A DNA stretch of 44,798 bases. It comes from Catajapyx aquilonaris. Taxonomy: Eukaryota. Shown in pieces: positions 22,714 to 44,798 of the stretch. The translations under genes were made by a program, and so were the position numbers. Position 1 is the first letter of the stretch, and each line of letters begins with the position of its first letter. The stretch spans positions 62,001-106,798 of the forward strand of contig JYFJ02000839.1 in assembly GCA_000934665.2 (NCBI GenBank). The letters run 5' to 3'. The notes under the pieces were generated by a model that saw only the letters and a list, made by a program, of their open reading frames with translations, made no database searches and was not told where the DNA came from.

Positions 22714-25700
22714 GTGAGGGGGCCAATCGGAAGTGTCGGGCAAACAATACGATGTATGGCCCGGGCCAATCGGAAGTCTTGCACAAGCAAGGATTTTAAT
22801 ATTCATATAGATTATTATTATTATTAGTCTACGGTATTATTATACTATTAGGTCTATTATTTTTGGGTAATTATCAAAAGCACCCTGCAACCCCTGACGC
22901 TGCGAGTTCTCAGTGAAATGAAATGTGCTCTAGCCTCTAGGCCCTACTATACTTGAAACGATTGGTGCCGAGGTGGTGCCGATCTCTGAATGACGCAATT
23001 CAATTCCGAGTTGGGGCAATTCCGATCTGAATTAAAGGCAATCAATTCAAGTAAATATATGTTACCATTTTAGTTCAATTCAACTTATGTAGGAACGTTA
23101 TAAATTCCGAATTTACTCCGAATGAATTCAAACCCAAATTGATGACATATCACTGTCTTCCCGTAATTGGCAGTCTGTAATAATTTTAATATTAAAGGGT
23201 TGAGTCATTCGCTACTGCAAATATACTGTATAATACCAAGAGCTCATGATATAATACTGTATCGTATATGCAATATCGAATGAACGAAACATTTTTATCT
23301 TTATCAGATTTAAGAGTTCTACCATCCGGGTATATTACTGTAATATTCCTACACTGAACATTCCTAAAATACGGTATCTTCTGGCATACAGGGCAACCAC
23401 GTGCAGCAAGAAAATTGTGAACTATAACTCCTAGTCGGTCAGAACACATCTACTAACCGAATAATATCATATTACGGTTAAGCCGGTGTATATTGAGTAT
23501 ATCCTCTTCAGTTTACGGTAAGAAGTGTATTGTTAAATGTGAAAAACCCCTAACTTGCCCTACTGAAAAATACTCTGAGAAACGTCTACAATAATGCTTG
23601 TAGCCTAAGTGTCAGCATCGGCCATGGTATTATTCACTGGCTGTTAGCGAAATGGATATGCTACACTCCGATGCCAGTTTTTTTTTTTTTTTCAGTACGG
23701 AATGTAACCATGAGACCTATCCATTATAAGCTTTGAGGAAAAGAAAAAGCAAAAAAAAGTGTGGGTGGAGAGTAAAGATCACTTTCACGACCGTTCTTCC
23801 CTTGAAGGCATAAATGGACAGACCAGATGCATTTATGCTGAACATAATGCGATATTATCATTCTAGACGTCGTTTCATTGCAGGCCACTGCACTTACTGT
23901 GAAGGAATTTCAGAACATTACTGCAATTGATGTGGCCTATTCATTGCAGCCTATTTATCATTCCGGACTTTTTTTTTTGTCTGGTAAAAAAAACATCTCT
24001 TTGCGTGCACTGCAATTGCGTTCAGAAAAAAAGCGGTGTGCAAAACCTTGAAAATGACTTTTATGAAGGTCAAGCAAAATGGAGAGAGAAAAATAAAACG
24101 CTACGGAATACGGTCGGCATGACACGAAACAATTTCGCGCCACTTGGAGACATCGGTAATAAACCAAGGGATGTTAATTCGGTCGCAAAATTCTAGAACA
24201 GAAAGTGATCACCAACACCCGGAAAAACCGGGAAACGTTCACTTCCTATGGGGCCCTCCAATTAGATACCTTTATAACGTTCCTTCGAGACCGTCTGAGA
24301 ATCTCACGCTTCATTAATTCATTCTTTTGTTTTTCTCCCCTACCTTTTTCTGATTGGGCGTTTTCTATAGAAGCCTTTGATGTTATTTTCTTCTTTTCTG
24401 CCACTTTTAGTCACCTATAATTTCGTCCAGACAGCGGCAAGGAAGCGTGAAAATAACGAACACCAATCAACGTGACGCTTAATTGCTACTTGAGCTGCTG
24501 ACATATCGCCCACGCCAAGTTTGACCCAAAATACTGTCCAAAACGACAACAAACTCAAATTCCGAATTGTCCGTTTCCCCCAAAAATTTGACAGTTGTCA
24601 CACGTGGAATCAAAATGGCGCGCTTGACAAGTATGATTGCTGCTGGATTCAAGAAAGGAACATGGCCCAGTTCCCCGTGGAACTTGGGCGTGTAATTTGA
24701 GAATCGAAGGGCAGATGCCAGCCAAGTCAGACGCCAATAAAACGCGCAAGTGGATCTGGGAAACAGACCAACCCCTTTTGCCAGGCCTGTCCTATATACC
24801 CCTTTTTTGACCAGGGCCTCCAGACCTGACGAGAGATGAAAAAGCTGCAGGCCAGCAAAATAAGAGTGGCCTCTCGGCTTTCACACAGGGCCAGATTATG
24901 TGTCTTTGAGGCGTCAGTAACATTCCATCAGAAGCTGAGGATCTTGTGGGGGAAGATTCAAGCTATTTCTTCTAAGGGCTAGAGCTAGAACTCTCAAAAT
25001 GACTGTTAAGGTCATACTGAATGCTTGAGGATGGGAATGAAGCCAATATAAATCATTAGTTGGTGCGTAGGAGTCCAGGCACATTCTGACGCATTTGTCT
25101 GTATTTTTGGTGTAGATGTGAGCCAATTAGAGATATAGATCATACACGCCTTCGACCACAGTAATTGGATGAAGTTTGGTAGATGCAGGAGGTGACATAT
25201 TATGCCTGATGGCATTGTGTGGACAAACTGTATTGTTATTTGTTGAAAGGAGAATGTAGTTATTTCAGTCCAAAAGTTCCGTATAGAGTATATCACGACA
25301 TAGACCTTGCGGATGGAAATGCGACATCTCGAAAAAGTTTACGGGTACCTCTGTACATTGGAATCATAAATCCACAGCCATCTGAATGTTCTTTAACTTT
25401 TGGTCGAATGACTGTAGGTTATTATATATGCGCGGGAGTGTTTCTTCTCCGTTGCGCAATACTGCTATACAGGGTTGCAATCCTTATAATACCCATGTCT
25501 TCTTGTGCTCATATTCCTCACTAGGGAATAATATTGCTCTTTGCAACATTTCCATTGCTCCAGCAGTCATTTTATTATCTCACGAGTCAGTTCCGACTCC
25601 TCTTTCTTCAATTGCATAGTTTCACTAACTTATCTCGTTAACAATTTTATGCACCATTTGTACTAAAAATCTCCAGTCGCAAATAATAAAATGATACTAT

Positions 25701-32413: not shown

Positions 32414-33220
32414 TCACTTAATGTCATTTTTTTGGGACTCGGTAACATCATTGGATCGATCGCGAAAGAACCCATCCATAGTTTTGCACTCACGTATTGT
32501 AACAGTCATCAGGTTAACCGTCACGTCGGTGATGAAAATTTGGTCAGCCAACGGATTTCTATTATGCCAGTATTCAGGTGGTGGGCTGATAGGCTCTATG
32601 TCAGGTGGTGATGGAGACGAAGACAGTACACCTGAATCGTCTCCAGTACCACCCCGATCAGGATCCTCCATGTCAGACTGAGCCCCATCGCCATTGGTCA
32701 CGCTCGCCTCCACATCTCTGTCCTTTGGAGATGGTGAGGGTGCTGGTGCCGGCGACAAAGGTGGGGCTACCGGGTTTATTGGGGATGCTACTGGAGTGCT
32801 ACTGGGAGATTTCACGCTGCTATTAACAGTAAGCGTTGTGCCCGTTGTGGACGTGTCAGACGCTGTCGGGGTGGCAGGTGACTTGGCAGAACCATCCTTG
32901 CCCGATGCCTCTTCTTTGTAGCTGAACTCTTCAGTAACAGCTTCAGGTGATGGCAGGCGAGACATTTTGGCAGGTGGGCTGCTGGGACTGGAGGATGACG
33001 AGGCAGCCGAGGTGGGTGATGCAGTGGTGATGGTGACTCCAATCTTCCCTGACTCGCGTAAGACTTCTGCTTTGCGCTTAGGGGCTTCCTTCTTGTTGAC
33101 TGGCCTCTCCTCTGACGAGGCATCACACACCTTGGAAGGGCCAGGACGTGCTTCTTCACCTCCAGACCCATCTCCATCTAAGTTCTTGTGGGGTGAAACA
33201 CAGCTGCTGGAGCCATGGTG
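32414..33220 (-). CDS. Pc: Pc terminal coding exon: S/P/T-rich low-complexity linker plus C-terminal Pc box (RING1-binding)
   Basis: Long open frame ending YWHNRNPLADQIFITDVTVNLMTVTIRECKTMDGFF (Pc box, ~32465-32572), stop TGA at 32414-32416. The 5' boundary is inferred from a phase-0 CAACAG| acceptor with a CTAAC branch-like motif upstream; the exact acceptor is uncertain. Confidence 0.88.
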   Translation of the reverse strand, partial: HHGSSSCVSPHKNLDGDGSGGEEARPGPSKVCDASSEERPVNKKEAPKRKAEVLRESGKIGVTITTASPTSAASSSSSPSSPPAKMSRLPSPEAVTEEFSYKEEASGKDGSAKSPATPTASDTSTTGTTLTVNSSVKSPSSTPVASPINPVAPPLSPAPAPSPSPKDRDVEASVTNGDGAQSDMEDPDRGGTGDDSGVLSSSPSPPDIEPISPPPEYWHNRNPLADQIFITDVTVNLMTVTIRECKTMDGFFRDRSNDVTESQKNDIK

Positions 33221-33544
33221 CTGTTGGCAAAGATCATTGAAACTGTTAGAGCAGGTCAAAGGTTATTGCACATGCCCACACCAGGACTCCACTGCTGCTC
33301 AGAATCAATTTGGTCTAACTTCCGACTATCCACTTCACCTTGTATGTATGTAATCACATTGTATATGCCTAATTGGTTCATTTTCCCCTACAGGGCCTGA
33401 TTTCCAATGTTGCAAAATGGGTGGCAATACATGTCGGCCAATAACAAAATTTAACTGACAAAGATGCTTTGTCATATATTTTGCTCCATTGTAATTCCAG
33501 CCTTAAGGGATACATCAAGAAGGAAAGGGGGGTAAAGGCATGAA

Positions 33545-33621
33545 AGGCCCCACCGAGAGTCGAACTCGGACTCCTGGGTTCCCATAAGGAGCCCAGAGTG
33601 CTGCCATTACACTATGGGACC
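33545..33621 (-). tRNA. tRNA-Gln-like gene with an abnormal 13-nt anticodon loop (isotype undetermined), in Pc intron 4
   Basis: Minus strand reads GGTCCCA TA GTGT AATGGCA GCAC T CTGGG CTCCTTATGGGAA CCCAG GAGT CCGAG TTCGACT CTCGG TGGGGCC T. All four stems pair; A box TAGTGTAATGG; B box GTTCGACTC. The body resembles eukaryotic tRNA-Gln. Confidence 0.8.
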
Positions 33622-34269
33622 TCATCAGCCATGGTCAATTTTTTCAGTTGCTTCTGTTTGTCAACTCTGAACCAATAAGGTTGGTAAAAACTGCAATCAA
33701 AACTATGCACTTGCACCATTACACCAGATTGACTCGCACTTGCCAATTCGTTTGTGCCTCAATATTAACTACCGCATAATTCCTTACCTGAAACACCATG
33801 TCAGCTCATTCACACCAACATGTAGAAATTACAATTATTATGCGACTGCTAATATCTCACACAATACAGTCGGAGTAGTTGGCCACGTTAATACCAGTTA
33901 ATTCAATTCAAATAATTAATCCTCCTAGAGCCAGCATGAAACCGGGTGAAACGGGAATCGCAATCAGGTTCATCCACGTGCTTAGCTGCATCTACGTATC
34001 TTCAAACAGGTTCAAAAACTGACGTATCATGACCTAACCCAACCCAATTACCCTCCATCCCACTCCTTGAGTAATGCGATCTCAGCCCTCTTTGAAATCC
34101 TCCACATCAGGACCTTCATGGAAACATGAACCTTCTTTCGCACATCAATTGACTACCCCTAACCCCCTGTTTTCCCACCAACAAGTGAATCGCCCAAAGA
34201 GATAATTTTTTTTACATCATTGTTTATAAATGGAAAATCTAGGCTTTTATATCAGCTAAGGGCCAGTTT

Positions 34270-34475
34270 CTAAATTTGGATTTAATAGTTACTTATTTAT
34301 TTTATCTTAACTTGAAATTGATTTAATCCGGGATTTTTTAAAATTTAATTTGGAATTATTTGTTATTTACTTATTTTATTTTAATTTTGGAATTATTTAA
34401 TAGTGGATTAATTTAATTTGGGGTTATTAATTTTTTTTACCTTATTTTAATTTGGAATTTAATTTAGGATTAAAC
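34270..34475. repeat. AT-rich degenerate minisatellite in Pc intron 4
   Basis: Recurrent TTAATTT(T)GGAATT-like units. Confidence 0.6.
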
Positions 34476-36575
34476 TGCTTATCGACATGATGGCGGTCAA
34501 ATTGTCAAAAACCCGCATAACACTTTCTATTGATTTCCCAGACGTGTCCTCGAGAAAGAATCCATTTACCTTAATTACTACCATCAGACAATGTCTAGTC
34601 CACCCCCGTTTCGCAATCCACGATAATCCACTCTCAAAATAATCCGCCAAAATACGCAAAAATTCTCCACGTGCCTATTGGGGTATATTTCGTCATACAC
34701 ATTGGTGCAAGCCATGTGACGCAAACAGTTCGTGCAACATTCGCGTTTTTCCGCATCCACCCTTCTTTAAAAACCGCAAATTTCTCAGAATCGCCAAACC
34801 CCACTGTTAATTCCAGGTATCCCATCAAAACATAAAATTTCAAGGTTAAGTATCCCTCCCAAAAAAAAAATCGGACAGAAGGGTGAGACCCATATGAGGC
34901 TGTTCTCACGGCCACGTGTAACCAGATCCTTTTTTTGGGGGGGATGGGGGATATCCCGAAACCGGTTTTTAGTTGTCCGTATAAATGCTCCGGATTATAT
35001 GTGTAAAAAAAAAAAATGTACCGGTGTCAAAGACTAGTCGGAAGAGCCAGATGTGTCCGCAATACCACTTGATAGGCATACCCCCCCCCCCCTCCCCCCT
35101 CCCCTATTTTTCGTAGACGGTCGATCTAGATTGGAGTGCAGCCGCGGCTGATCCAGTTTGGCACACAAAAATGCTTCGAACTCGATGCCGCTTGGCCGGG
35201 TGTTGTTTTCAGAAACGGATCGAATTTCAAGGCTTCAGGATACAAAAAACCGATACAACATATTGCGCGGCTACTTTATTTTTTGCCCATTTTTTTTTTC
35301 AAAAAGTCAGATGGCAAAAATGCAGCTTACTACGTCCGCTAACCTGAACTTGCTTTTTTCCCCCCACTGTGATATTACGGATAGAAGCGCGCAATACTGC
35401 TGATTCACTTGAGAATATTAATGGCAGCTCATATGTAATCGATACGTGTGTGCTCGACATTAAAAATTCAGGACGATAACGAAATTACCAGCACGGATAA
35501 TAATAATAACAGCGTTTTCAGACTAACCTGCATATAGACACGAATTTAAATTATGATTAACTTAAATTGTAAATTAAAATATCACTGCCAATATTGCATC
35601 AAAGCCGACAAGAGCGGAAGCGAGCGTCCGCGAGATTCCCACCAATACGGATGAGCGCTGTGTATACAATATTGAAACAATATTCCGCGCGCGCAAAAAA
35701 AAAAACCCCACGTGCCCGCAACAATTCAATAAATAAGTCCATTTAAAATAAATCCCCCCGCAATTTGCCAACATCCCAGCTCACTTCACACCGGATTTAT
35801 GACAGGCTCCCAAACTGTGGGGTTGGGAAGCCGGAGCAGGGAACTTCTGCCGTTCCCCTCCCCCATTGGCTAGGAAATAATACATGGGGCTTTGACCGAT
35901 TCCGGTCCATGGCTGCTCAATCCCTAAATACAGATGGTGCCAACAGTCGTTCCATTGTTGCCACCTTCGGGGATATGCTTATATTATTGTATATGCTGGT
36001 GTGGTAATAATCCCTCCGGTGTTAGTTACTCGGGGGTTAGTTACCCCCGGGTTAGTTACCTAAAGTTGGAAAAGTAGCCATAGAATAATTTTTTTTCACG
36101 TCTACCCCTTGCTATACCCTACCCCCCATTTCCCCCCCGTCGCGCCTGGTTACCGTTGTCATGGCAATGAACTGCTGCACACGTCGTTATGCCGGGTCAC
36201 GTGGTGTCGACCAAACACGCCGATTGGTCCGAACCGAAAGGCGGGCGTGGGCAACCGTTGTAGCTTATGCCATGCCGGCCGTTTTTTTTTTGTTTTTTTT
36301 AGTGATCCTATATTTTTGATTATTTCTCCGGATGTACTCACTTAATTTGATGCTTTTTTAATTCAGGGTGGTTCAGACTGTAGCGTTTCGAAAATGCGTT
36401 TTTTTTTCTGGGTGCGACAACAGGTCGGGAGCGGTGCGATTTTTTTGGGAGGATTTTTTTGTAAACCCCTCGGTGGCCAACTGCCACTTGGGCCACAATT
36501 TCCTGAACACACCGTACCATTTCGGCCATACCGTTATGCCGAAATGTCACAAAATTTAAAAAAAAACATTCCTAC

Positions 36576-36633
36576 CTGCCGGTCTCTTTTGGGCTTGGGT
36601 CCTCGTTTGTGCGGCATGTCCCGATCTTTTTGA
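36576..36633 (-). CDS. Pc: Pc coding exon 4, (S)QKDRDMPHKRGPKPKRDRQ
   Basis: Acceptor TTCTTTTTGCAG| and donor CAG|GTAGGA; 58 nt; frame continuous with exon 3. KRGPKPK is the AT-hook-like motif that follows the chromodomain in CBX proteins. Confidence 0.92.
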
Positions 36634-36690
36634 CTGCAAAAAGAAAACAAACATGAGTACACAGCATGTACAGTACACCTGTAATCTCAC

Positions 36691-36756
36691 CTTTTCTCGA
36701 AAGCGTCGATCAGACGACCGTCCAGAATGTTTTCCTCCGGTTCCCATGTGCTGTAC
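36691..36756 (-). CDS. Pc: Pc coding exon 3, (R)[21 protein letters not shown](S)
   Basis: Acceptor CATACAG| and donor AAG|GTGAGA; 66 nt; phase matches exon 2. Contains the [10 protein letters not shown] chromodomain signature. Confidence 0.96.
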
Positions 36757-36822
36757 CTGTATGTACAGGGGAAAAAAAGACCGTAAGTTGCGTGCCGGTT
36801 GCAACGTGCACAAACAACGTAC

Positions 36823-36866
36823 CTGGGACTCCATCCTTTCCATTTCACCAAATATTCTACCCGACC
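36823..36866 (-). CDS. Pc: Pc coding exon 2, [14 protein letters not shown](R)
   Basis: Acceptor TTTTTACAG| and donor AG|GTACGT; 44 nt. Encodes the chromodomain core YLVKWKGW with aromatic-cage W32/W35. Confidence 0.96.
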
Positions 36867-36939
36867 CTGTAAAAATAAGTATATTTGTAGTGACATATCC
36901 AAATGATGTCATACGCACACACGCACAACTCACACTTGC

Positions 36940-37008
36940 CTTCTTCACACGCTTTTTCTGTATACGTTCTGCTGCGAATACGCGATCCCCGACACTCGAC
37001 AACTCCAT
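36940..37008 (-). CDS. Pc: Polycomb/chromobox (Pc, CBX2/4/6/7/8 family) coding exon 1, MELSSVGDRVFAAERIQKKRVKK
   Basis: ATG at 37008. The 69-nt exon translates to the typical Pc-class chromodomain N-terminus (compare CBX7 MELSAIGEQVFAVESIRKKRVRK). It ends at AAG|GCAAGT; an alternative in-frame GTGAGT donor starts at 36933. Confidence 0.93.

Positions 37009-38017: not shown

Positions 38018-38065
<48 letters not shown>
38018..38065. repeat. (ACA)n microsatellite
   Basis: About 16 perfect units. Confidence 0.97.

Positions 38066-38066
<1 letters not shown>

Positions 38067-41401: not shown

Positions 41402-41485
<84 letters not shown>
41402..41485. repeat. (AAT)28 microsatellite
   Basis: Read directly. 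Confidence 0.98.
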
Positions 41486-41486
<1 letters not shown>

Positions 41487-44298: not shown

Positions 44299-44798
44299 AA
44301 TCGTAGTGGGGTTAAGCAGGGTTGTGTCATGTCTCCCTGGTTATTTAACTTATACTTAGATGCATGTGTAAGGGAAGCTATGGTTGAAGGTGTAGGAGTG
44401 CAGTTTGGTGATGAGTTAGTTAGTCACTTGCTGTATGCAGATGATTCTGCCCTTCTGGCGGAGAGTGAGGCTGATTTACAGTTGATCCTAGGCAAGTTAG
44501 ATAATGTTTGTGAAAAGAGGGGTATGAGGATTAACGTATATAAGACTAAGGTTTTGGTATTTGAGAGGGGACAGCAGGTTTCTCCTTGTACGTTGCAGGT
44601 ACGAGGAAAACTGGTTGAGCAGGTCAGCCAGTTTGTATACCTGGGTAGTGTCCTTGAGAGTAATGGCAGAATTGATGGGGAAATAGACAGGAGAGTTAGT
44701 CCTGGGTTGAAAGTGATAGGTGCCACAAGTAAGTTTTCTAGAAATAAGGACTTATCTTCTGCCTGTAGGTTGTCTGTCTATTCTCACGTTATTGTTCC
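44299..44798 (+). mobile_element. Non-LTR retrotransposon (RTE-like) reverse transcriptase fragment, 5'-truncated, runs off the window
   Basis: Stop-free frame SGVKQGCVMSPWLFNLYLD...HLLYADDSALLAESEADLQ...GMRINVYKTKVLVF...EQVSQFVYLGS...DGEIDRRV, with YADD at 44434-44445. It is absent from the ORF track because no stop occurs within the window. Confidence 0.93.

What the first reader, a model, noticed from the sequence alone, without database searches (positions are those of the whole stretch)
33545..33621. tRNA-Gln-like RNA gene with a 9-nt hairpin in place of the anticodon, nested sense-strand in the Polycomb intron
Seen: a complete cloverleaf with fully paired acceptor, D, anticodon and T stems and intact A/B boxes. 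The loop is CT-[CCTTATGGG]-AA instead of CT-[YTG]-AA, and the extra bases can extend the stem (TCCT/GGGA around TAT). Established: standard eukaryotic tRNA-Gln has a CTGGA/TCCAG anticodon stem. Here it is CTGGG/CCCAG, a compensatory double change, so structure looks maintained rather than decaying. There is no SINE body, tail or TSD, and no T4 Pol III terminator directly follows (TTTCATGCCTTTACC). Inference, four options: (a) a non-decoding tRNA-like RNA cut from the Pc pre-mRNA by RNase P/Z, which could also sever the chromodomain exons from the Pc-box exon; (b) a TFIIIC-bound insulator; (c) a tRNA with a 6-nt intron (ATGGGA) giving a CCT anticodon on a Gln body, although U37 would be atypical; (d) a member of a tRNA-like repeat family.
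Basis: partly seen in the sequence, partly recalled or inferred. Interest (0 to 1): 0.8.

Follow-up and report, generated by a model that had tools for sequence, protein, structure and literature searches.

The report
Disabled glutamine tRNA in Polycomb intron
A lone glutamine-type tRNA gene inside an intron of an arthropod Polycomb gene keeps its full cloverleaf shape but has a small hairpin where the codon-reading loop should be, so it is most likely a tRNA copy that can no longer decode; whether it has a second role is untested.

Summary
A 77-nt tRNA homologue lies at 33545-33621 on the minus strand (Rfam tRNA 49.6 bits, gathering 29, E 9e-8). All 21 cloverleaf pairs are standard. Between the CTGGG/CCCAG stem lies a 13-nt loop that can close into TCCT/GGGA around TAT. 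The body is glutamine-type: 60/71 identical to canonical eukaryote-type tRNA-Gln, and 117 of 126 signature matches in public contigs are tRNA-Gln. It sits sense-strand in the inferred 3.36-kb last intron of a Polycomb/CBX gene.

All three stem changes relative to canonical Gln keep pairing. Ten random substitutions do so in only 0.08-0.6% of simulations. The inner hairpin itself is only mildly above chance. The first T4 is 96 nt downstream, against a median of 7 nt for real Gln genes. There is no target-site duplication (TSD), tail or second copy in the window.

My best reading is a diverged tRNA-Gln paralogue whose anticodon loop is destroyed. It cannot decode but should still be recognised by tRNA-processing enzymes. 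Copy number, conservation and expression could not be tested: no genome is held and read laying was unavailable. A 6-nt intron reading is disfavoured. Interest is modest.

The parts
33545..33621 (-). tRNA-Gln-derived, tRNA-shaped gene (77 nt, discriminator T, no encoded CCA)
   Evidence: Rfam RF00005 49.6 bits, E 9.1e-08. 21/21 cloverleaf pairs are standard. 60/71 identical to canonical tRNA-Gln.
33574..33596 (-). Aberrant anticodon arm: CTGGG/CCCAG stem enclosing 13 nt (33579-33591) that fold to TCCT/GGGA plus a TAT triloop with a C.A 1x1 loop
   Evidence: arm alone -11.5 kcal/mol, against -5.1 with the loop open. Chance control.
33604..33614 (-). A-box region TAGTGTAATGG; differs from canonical Gln genes only by G9->A
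   Evidence: Alignment. The box consensus is recalled.
33556..33566 (-). B-box region AGTTCGACTCT (T arm/loop; T54 T55 C56 A58 C61 kept)
   Evidence: Alignments. The box consensus is recalled.
33446..33449 (-). First T4 run downstream of the gene, at +96; the nearest possible Pol III terminator
   Evidence: In reference Gln genes the first T4 is at a median of +7, and 92 of 114 have one within 20 nt.
33221..36575 (-). Inferred host intron of the Pc/CBX gene (3355 nt, GT..AG, phase 0). The tRNA-like gene lies 2954 nt from its 5' end, and 324 nt of intron follow it.
   Evidence: Homology mapping; splice-site and phase inspection. There is no RNA evidence, so further small exons are not excluded.
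36576..36633 (-). Pc exon encoding QKDRDMPHKRGPKPKRDRQ, upstream of the host intron
   Evidence: tblastn of 8 Pc orthologues; CAG|GTAGGA donor.
32414..33220 (-). Last Pc coding exon with the CBX C-terminal (Pc box) motif
   Evidence: Pfam CBX7_C 7.8e-16. Homologues are named polycomb group protein Pc; best E 3.3e-25 at 39% identity.
36693..37008 (-). Pc exons 1-3 (start codon, chromodomain); exon bounds approximate
   Evidence: Pfam Chromo 2.1e-12; tblastn.

Best explanation
This is a diverged paralogue of the nuclear glutamine tRNA gene in an arthropod genome. Its anticodon loop has been replaced by 13 nt that pair on themselves.

**Shown.**
- The acceptor stem, D arm, T arm, invariant tertiary residues and internal promoter regions are all of tRNA-Gln type and intact.
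- There is no 7-nt loop and no YTG anticodon.

**Inferred.**
- The RNA cannot read codons and lacks the anticodon that GlnRS normally uses. For translation it is a dead gene.
- It kept tRNA-type constraint for most of its divergence, so it looks like a variant isodecoder that was later disabled by the loop lesion, not like a long-decayed relic.
- The acceptor/T minihelix is intact, so any transcript carrying it would still be a substrate for RNase P, RNase Z and CCA addition. Such a transcript could be the Pc pre-mRNA intron made by Pol II, or a Pol III transcript running to the T4 at +96. The product would be a roughly 77-nt non-decoding tRNA-shaped RNA.
- No function beyond that is shown.
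For: **It is a true tRNA homologue.**
- Rfam tRNA scores 49.6 bits against a gathering score of 29.
- All 21 cloverleaf pairs are standard.
- The canonical cloverleaf with the closed arm is within 1.7 kcal/mol of the MFE (-33.4 against -35.1).

**It is glutamine-type.**
- The body signature finds tRNA-Gln in 117 of 126 matches; the rest are 1 Asp and 8 uncalled.
- Identity to canonical Gln genes is 60/71.

**It cannot decode.** The loop is 13 nt. Reference Gln genes have CTCTGAA (60) or CTTTGAA (55) among 116 parsed.

**Its divergence looks constrained.**
- The 3 stem changes are A31G with T39C, and A70G. All three keep pairing.
- 10 random substitutions keep all pairs in 0.08-0.6% of simulations. 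They keep all pairs plus the 11 invariant residues in 0.005-0.04%.
- 7 of 10 substitutions raise G+C and 2 lower it, in an intron of 42% G+C. The gene is 60% G+C. This is opposite to decay towards the background.

**It is not a standard Pol III gene.** The first T4 is at +96. In reference Gln genes 92 of 114 have one within 20 nt.

**It is not a retro-copy or SINE by local marks.** There is no encoded CCA, tail or TSD and no other copy in the window.
Against: - Only one sequence is available. The ancestor is assumed to be the canonical Gln gene, and the species' own Gln genes were not seen.
- The simulation ignores ascertainment. This element was noticed because it is intact, and a genome with thousands of tRNA-derived copies would yield a few intact ones by chance.
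- If the differences were inherited from a diverged master copy, as in a repeat family, the constraint argument says nothing about this locus.
- The reference set was collected with a pattern taken from this gene. It is therefore biased towards canonical-like Gln genes.
- Copy number, conservation in relatives and expression are all unknown.
- The inner hairpin gains more energy than 93-98% of random loops. That could hint at selection for a closed arm rather than an accidental lesion.
Confidence: 0.45

Rival explanations
1. It is a maintained, non-decoding tRNA-like RNA made from the Pc pre-mRNA. RNase P and RNase Z cut the cloverleaf out of the last intron. The structure or the cleavage modulates splicing of that intron, or produces Pc transcripts lacking the Pc-box exon.
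For: - It is sense-strand in the inferred last intron, with 324 nt of intron following it before the acceptor.
- It has an intact acceptor/T minihelix and a stem-preserving divergence.
- It has no nearby Pol III terminator.
- The closed arm is more stable than 93-98% of random loops.
- Precedents exist. The Arabidopsis GUT15 tRNA-like lies in a final intron, has a non-canonical anticodon stem-loop, is Pol II-dependent, receives CCA and inhibits splicing of its host intron (PMC6152437, abstract and passages). Human nimtRNAs promote splicing in a way that depends on the cloverleaf (PMC7722341, abstract).
Against: - There is no expression, conservation or processing data of any kind.
- An intronic, sense-strand location is expected by chance for many tRNA genes (PMC4999229).
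- Unlike GUT15, the A-box region here is like that of normal Gln genes. Pol III independence is therefore not implied.
Confidence: 0.2
2. It is one member of a dispersed family of tRNA-Gln-derived repeats, either a SINE head or a multi-copy tRNA-like gene. The ten differences and the loop insert would then be inherited from a master copy.
For: - Ten differences with no broken pair are what a young copy of a diverged but selected master would show.
- tRNA-derived SINEs are common in arthropods (recalled).
- A reverse-transcriptase fragment lies in the same window, so retroelements are present.
Against: - No second copy of the gene or of its flanks occurs in 44.8 kb.
- There is no TSD, no A-rich or simple-repeat tail and no encoded CCA.
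- The full 3' acceptor strand is present, which SINE heads usually lose (recalled).
- Scans for this variant's arm or T-arm signature found 0 matches in viral and prokaryote-genome contigs. The expanded-loop Gln pattern found 0 matches in metagenome contigs. These collections hold few arthropod sequences, so this is weak.
Confidence: 0.15
3. It acts as DNA rather than RNA: a TFIIIC-bound tDNA serving as an insulator or Pol II roadblock inside the Pc gene.
For: - The B-box region keeps the T-arm residues of functional Gln genes.
- tRNA genes and their introns have been linked to transcription-barrier activity (PMC10275265, section 11, citing Donze and Kamakaka 2001).
Against: - Nothing in the sequence distinguishes this from any tRNA gene or pseudogene.
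- It does not explain why the stems, rather than only the boxes, are preserved.
- It is not testable here.
Confidence: 0.06
4. It is a decoding tRNA with a 6-nt intron (ATGGGA) at the canonical 37/38 site. Splicing would give loop CUCCUUA, anticodon CCU, on a Gln body.
For: - Removing 6 nt restores a 7-nt loop with C32 and U33.
- In one register C32 can pair with the antepenultimate intron G. This leaves a 3-nt bulge (G, A, A38) at the 3' splice site, as the anticodon-intron pair rule requires (PMC10275265, section 11; sequence).
Against: - That register has only a 2-bp helix. The stable register is 6.4 kcal/mol better than the open loop and buries the 3' splice site in a helix.
- Six nt is far below the quoted intron range: 14-60 nt in yeast and up to 133 nt elsewhere.
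- Position 37 would be U.
- The anticodon would be Arg on a Gln body.
- The Gln family is not among the intron-bearing families listed for human in that review: Tyr, Ile-UAU, Arg-UCU and Leu-CAA.
- 0 matches to a Gln body with an 11-17-nt span in metagenome contigs, against 120 or more with the normal span.
Confidence: 0.04
5. It is tRNA-Ile(UAU) with an 8-bp anticodon stem, as ARAGORN calls it.
For: ARAGORN reports Ile (tat) at 33544-33622. CTTATGG is a well-formed 7-nt loop with U33 and a purine at 37.
Against: - The call needs an 8-bp acceptor, a distorted D arm and a C.A mismatch in the arm (drawing).
- That arm fold is 4.5 kcal/mol worse than the MFE arm (-7.0 against -11.5).
- The body is Gln-type.
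- An anticodon arm 3 bp too long would not fit the decoding geometry (inference).
Confidence: 0.01

Closest known systems
Canonical eukaryotic nuclear tRNA-Gln (CTG/TTG) genes
   Same: - 60/71 aligned positions are identical.
- Same acceptor stem apart from A70G, same D stem, same 4-nt variable region length, same T stem and same discriminator T.
- The body signature is Gln-specific in 117 of 126 matches.
   Different: - 13-nt loop with no YTG anticodon.
- G31:C39 instead of A31:T39.
- D loop 1 nt shorter.
- Variable region GAGT instead of CGAT; no GAGT among the 116 parsed.
- T loop TTCGACT.
- U3.G70 wobble.
- First T4 at +96, against a median of +7.
GUT15 tRNA-like molecule of Arabidopsis (PMC6152437; abstract and passages read)
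   Same: [quoted passage not shown]
   Different: - GUT15's A box deviates by two extra nucleotides and it has three unpaired bases between the acceptor and D stems. Here both are canonical.
- GUT15's accumulation, CCA tail, Pol II dependence and splicing inhibition are shown by experiment. Nothing is shown here.
- The host there is a plant lncRNA; here it is an arthropod protein-coding gene.
nimtRNAs, nuclear intronic mitochondrial-derived tRNA look-alikes (PMC7722341; abstract read)
   Same: Intronic tRNA look-alikes that keep a cloverleaf despite base changes. The cloverleaf is proposed to act as a splicing regulatory element.
   Different: They derive from mitochondrial tRNAs through numts and are described in human. 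The element here is of nuclear Gln type.
mascRNA / MEN-beta tRNA-like (Rfam RF01684)
   Same: A tRNA-like structure cut from a Pol II transcript by RNase P/Z, with a non-canonical anticodon arm (recalled; also discussed in PMC6152437).
   Different: The Rfam model scores only 20.7 bits against a gathering score of 42.5, and aligns only the acceptor and T arm. It is not a member.
Ordinary tRNA pseudogenes and tRNA-derived SINE heads
   Same: tRNA-derived sequence with a non-functional anticodon region.
   Different: - All stems and invariant residues are intact despite about 15% divergence.
- No tail, TSD or repeated flank.

Membership tests
tRNA (Rfam RF00005) | Covariance-model score at or above the gathering score | tested here: met
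   49.6 bits against 29, full model 1-71, E 9.1e-08.
tRNA (Rfam RF00005) | Four-stem cloverleaf with standard pairs | tested here: met
   21/21 pairs are standard. The cloverleaf is within 1.7 kcal/mol of the MFE.
tRNA (decoding) | 7-nt anticodon loop with U33, anticodon 34-36 and purine 37 | tested here: not met
   13-nt loop CTCCTTATGGGAA. It closes to a 4-bp helix and a triloop.
tRNA (decoding) | Expressed, CCA-tailed and aminoacylated | not testable with these tools
Nuclear tRNA-Gln | Gln-type body sequence | tested here: met
   117 of 126 matches to the body signature are ARAGORN tRNA-Gln. 60/71 identity.
Nuclear tRNA-Gln | CTG or TTG anticodon | tested here: not met
   Reference loops are CTCTGAA or CTTTGAA in 115 of 116. 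Neither is present here.
Pol III type 2 gene | T4 or longer terminator shortly after the 3' end | tested here: not met
   First T4 at +96. Reference Gln genes: 74/114 within 10 nt, 92/114 within 20 nt and 104/114 within 40 nt.
Intron-containing eukaryotic pre-tRNA | Intron at 37/38 in a bulge-helix-loop with an anticodon-intron pair; splice sites single-stranded | tested here: inconclusive
   A C32:G (antepenultimate) pair is possible but gives only a 2-bp helix. The favoured fold buries the 3' splice site (rule from PMC10275265).
Intron-containing eukaryotic pre-tRNA | Intron length in the known range, and a plausible spliced anticodon loop | tested here: not met
   6 nt against 14-60 nt in yeast and up to 133 nt elsewhere. 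The spliced loop CUCCUUA has U37 and an Arg anticodon on a Gln body.
tRNA-derived SINE | tRNA-related head followed by a body and an A-rich or simple-repeat tail, flanked by target-site duplications | tested here: not met
   No tail. The longest word shared between the 60-nt flanks is 5 nt, reached by 1737 of 2000 shuffles.
tRNA-derived SINE | Many dispersed copies in the genome | not testable with these tools
   No genome is held. Only the window was searched, with no second copy.
mascRNA-menRNA (RF01684) | Covariance-model score at or above the gathering score | tested here: not met
   20.7 bits against 42.5.
GUT15-type intronic tRNA-like RNA | Sense-strand in an intron of a Pol II gene, with a non-canonical anticodon arm | tested here: met
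   The intron bounds are inferred from homology and GT-AG/phase, not from RNA.
GUT15-type intronic tRNA-like RNA | Stable RNA produced from the host Pol II transcript, CCA-tailed, and affecting host-intron splicing | not testable with these tools
   No expression data could be obtained.

The most novel reading that the evidence does not exclude
The element is a selectively maintained, non-decoding tRNA-shaped RNA embedded in the last intron of an arthropod Polycomb gene. RNase P/Z cut it from the Pc pre-mRNA. Its structure or its excision tunes removal of that intron, and so the ratio of full-length Pc to transcripts lacking the Pc-box exon. That would make it an animal, protein-coding-host counterpart of the Arabidopsis GUT15 tRNA-like.
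Probability: 0.12. Interest if true: 0.6.

Novelty: new member of a known kind. Interest (0 to 1): 0.27.

Why it matters
If it is only a disabled tRNA-Gln copy, it matters little. It would be one more entry that annotation pipelines should flag as tRNA-like rather than as tRNA-Ile, which is ARAGORN's call, or tRNA-Arg with an intron.

If the closed anticodon arm and the intron position turn out to be conserved in related arthropods, it would be a rare animal example of a nuclear-tRNA-derived structured RNA co-opted inside a developmental regulator gene. It would also be directly testable with a minigene and tRNA-seq.

Tried and rejected
- **Whole-genome copy number.** The genome search 'own' reported that no genome is held.
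- **Sequencing runs.** Five runs hold the stretch. Four come from one sample that may be the source of the DNA, and one is of unknown kind with a share of 0.30. No RNA holder is listed.
- **Read laying.** Nothing was laid and it was not repeated. Depth-based copy number, variants and intron joints therefore remain open.
- **Public collections, this variant.**
  - Gln body with an 11-17-nt span in metagenome contigs: 0.
  - This variant's T-arm signature in prokaryote genome contigs: 0.
  - This variant's anticodon arm in viral contigs: 0.
  - These collections hold little arthropod DNA, so the blanks say little.
- **Earlier notes of this scan.** Nothing for this genome or this sequence. A word search returned only phage tRNA inserts.
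- **ARAGORN's tRNA-Ile(TAT).** Rejected as a forced fold.
- **mascRNA membership.** Rejected.
- **Other Rfam families within 33300-33900 at E up to 10.** Only chance-level hits.
- **LTR or other repeat context.** No second copy of the 677-nt surroundings in the window.
- **Literature.** Four full-text searches gave no paper on a tRNA-like element in a Polycomb intron or on a Gln-type tRNA with a 13-nt closed loop. These searches were narrow and do not show that none exists. A search inside Yoshihisa 2014 (PMC4090602) for the shortest intron length matched nothing.

Full report
**What is there**

The window carries one RNA-family match at Rfam's gathering level. It is tRNA (RF00005) at 33545-33621 on the minus strand, 49.6 bits against a gathering score of 29, E 9.1e-08, covering model positions 1-71.

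Read on the minus strand the 77 nt form these parts:
- a 7-bp acceptor stem with U3.G70;
- a 4-bp D stem;
- a 5-bp anticodon stem, CTGGG/CCCAG;
- a 4-nt variable region;
- a 5-bp T stem.

All 21 pairs are standard. Where a 7-nt anticodon loop belongs there are 13 nt, CTCCTTATGGGAA. Rfam treats these as an insertion. ViennaRNA closes them into a C.A 1x1 loop, the helix TCCT/GGGA and a TAT triloop.

Whole-molecule folding is only moderately better than shuffles: z -2.38, with 3 of 200 shuffles as good. The MFE uses an alternative T arm, GAGTC/GACTC. The canonical cloverleaf with the closed arm is 1.7 kcal/mol above it, at -33.4 against -35.1.

ARAGORN calls the gene tRNA-Ile(TAT). It does so only by drawing an 8-bp acceptor, a distorted D arm and an anticodon stem with a C.A mismatch. 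That arm fold is 4.5 kcal/mol worse than the MFE arm. I reject the call.

**Host gene**

The minus strand also encodes a Polycomb/CBX gene.
- Pfam finds Chromo (2.1e-12) in the 36687-36908 frame.
- Pfam finds the CBX C-terminal motif (7.8e-16) in the 32414-33262 frame.
- The last exon has 418 homologues at E up to 0.001. The named ones among the best 120 are mostly insect 'polycomb group protein Pc'. The best has E 3.3e-25 at 39% identity over 78% of the query.

The source is therefore an arthropod with no close relative in that protein collection.

Eight orthologues map by tblastn to exon 1 (from 37008), two chromodomain exons, a KRGPKPK exon and the last exon. Inspection of splice sites and phase gives:
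- a donor, CAG|GTAGGA, after 36576;
- a phase-0 acceptor, TTTGCCAACAG|CAC, before 33220.

The inferred intron is thus 33221-36575, 3355 nt. The tRNA-like gene lies in it in the sense direction. Some 2954 nt of intron precede it and 324 nt follow it. These bounds rest on homology and sequence rules only. No RNA evidence was available.

**Is it glutamine-type?**

I used a signature taken from the gene itself: the D-stem 3' strand, the start and end of the anticodon stem, and the T-arm start.
- Of the 126 matches in those 122 loci, 117 lie in ARAGORN tRNA-Gln calls (60 CTG, 57 TTG). One is Asp, from a viral contig. Eight have no call.
- With an 11-17-nt span the same signature matched nothing in the metagenome collection.

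The window's gene is 60/71 (84.5%) identical to the commonest Gln sequences and 52/71 identical to the most distant.

Among 116 parsed Gln genes the anticodon stem is CTGGA/TCCAG in 115 and CTGGG/TCCAG in 1.

The other differences are:
- G9A;
- a D loop 1 nt shorter, with T>C;
- variable region CGAT>GAGT;
- T loop AAAT>GACT;
- A70G.

The reference set is biased towards canonical-like genes because the pattern came from this gene.

**Decay or constraint?**

Outside the loop there are 10 substitutions. Three are in stems (31, 39, 70) and all three keep pairing. None of 11 invariant or semi-invariant residues is changed.

I placed 10 random substitutions on the canonical 72-mer outside the anticodon loop, with 200,000 trials for each transition/transversion setting.
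- All 21 pairs stayed intact in 0.08%, 0.2% and 0.6% of trials (kappa 1, 2 and 4).
- Pairs and invariant residues together stayed intact in 0.005-0.04%.

Seven of the 10 substitutions raise G+C and two lower it. The surrounding intron is 42% G+C and the gene is 60%. Both observations argue against long neutral decay at this locus.

Three caveats apply.
- The true ancestor, the species' own Gln genes, was not seen.
- The differences may have been inherited from a diverged master copy.
- The element was noticed because it is intact, which is an ascertainment bias.

**The hairpin**

The closed arm is less special than it looks.

| Control | 4 or more inner pairs | Energy gain as large as the observed 6.4 kcal/mol |
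|---|---|---|
| Shuffles of the 13 nt | 19% | 6.7% |
| Gln loops with a random 6-nt insert | 16% | 1.5% |
| Random 13-mers at local composition | 12% | 4.5% |

**Pol III context**

On the gene strand the first run of four T's is 96 nt past the 3' end. Among reference Gln genes with enough flank:
- 74 of 114 have a T4 within 10 nt;
- 92 have one within 20 nt;
- 104 have one within 40 nt;
- 7 show none in 60 nt or more;
- the median offset is 7 nt.

The gene therefore lacks the usual terminator. It has no encoded CCA and no tail. It has no target-site duplication: the longest shared flank word is 5 nt, reached by 1737 of 2000 shuffles. No second copy of the gene or of its 677-nt surroundings occurs in the window.

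**The intron reading**

Removing ATGGGA at 37/38 gives the loop CUCCUUA, which is anticodon CCU with U37.

The review PMC10275265 (section 11 read) states three things:
- eukaryotic tRNA introns lie between N37 and N38;
- they range from 14-60 nt in yeast up to 133 nt elsewhere;
- they form a bulge-helix-loop, with a pair between N32 and the antepenultimate intron residue.

Here C32 could pair with that residue (G). The helix would then be 2 bp, and the more stable register buries the 3' splice site. With U37 and an Arg anticodon on a Gln body, I put this reading at about 4%.

**What it most likely is**

It is most likely a diverged tRNA-Gln paralogue that evolved under tRNA-type constraint and whose anticodon loop is now destroyed. 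It is non-decoding (shown by the sequence). It should still be recognised by RNase P, RNase Z and the CCA-adding enzyme (inferred from the intact acceptor/T minihelix).

I cannot tell whether it is a recent casualty or a maintained tRNA-like RNA. Published analogues show that the second is possible:
- The Arabidopsis GUT15 tRNA-like lies in a final intron and has a non-canonical anticodon arm. It is made from the Pol II transcript, is CCA-tailed and inhibits splicing of its host intron (PMC6152437, abstract and passages).
- Human nimtRNAs are intronic cloverleaves that promote splicing (PMC7722341, abstract).

The location itself is unremarkable. In C. elegans 44% of 609 tRNA genes are intronic, no more than chance, and 56% of those are in the host's orientation (PMC4999229, passages).

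**What stays open**

Genomic copy number, conservation in related species and expression all remain open. No genome is held. No RNA run is listed.

**Verdict**

The element is a new member of a known kind, and of modest interest.

Noticed in passing
window 33553-33573 (minus strand): The variable-region and T-loop substitutions together create an alternative perfect 5-bp helix, GAGTC/GACTC. It competes with the canonical T stem CCGAG/CTCGG and is used in the MFE fold. Canonical Gln genes lack it.
   Followed up: partly
window 44299-44796 (+): An open frame running off the window end encodes a reverse-transcriptase fragment (Pfam RVT_1, 1.1e-14). A retroelement therefore lies about 7 kb upstream of the Pc start.
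   Followed up: no
window 41402-41486 and 38018-38066: Perfect trinucleotide microsatellites: (AAT)28 and (ACA)16. The window also holds three N's.
   Followed up: no
window 1-25000: Only one stop-to-stop frame of 130 aa or more (24479-24880, minus strand) in 25 kb downstream of the Pc gene. The region looks gene-poor and was not examined further.
   Followed up: no
window 33455-33475 (minus strand): A small hairpin, ATGACAAAG..CTTTGTCAG, lies about 70-90 nt downstream of the tRNA-like gene, just before the first T4 run. It could act with that T-run as a terminator-like element, or it could be chance.
   Followed up: no
L002 (viral contig), 281-355: A viral contig carries a tRNA called Asp(GTC) that shares the Gln-type D-stem, anticodon-stem and T-arm signature.
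   Followed up: no
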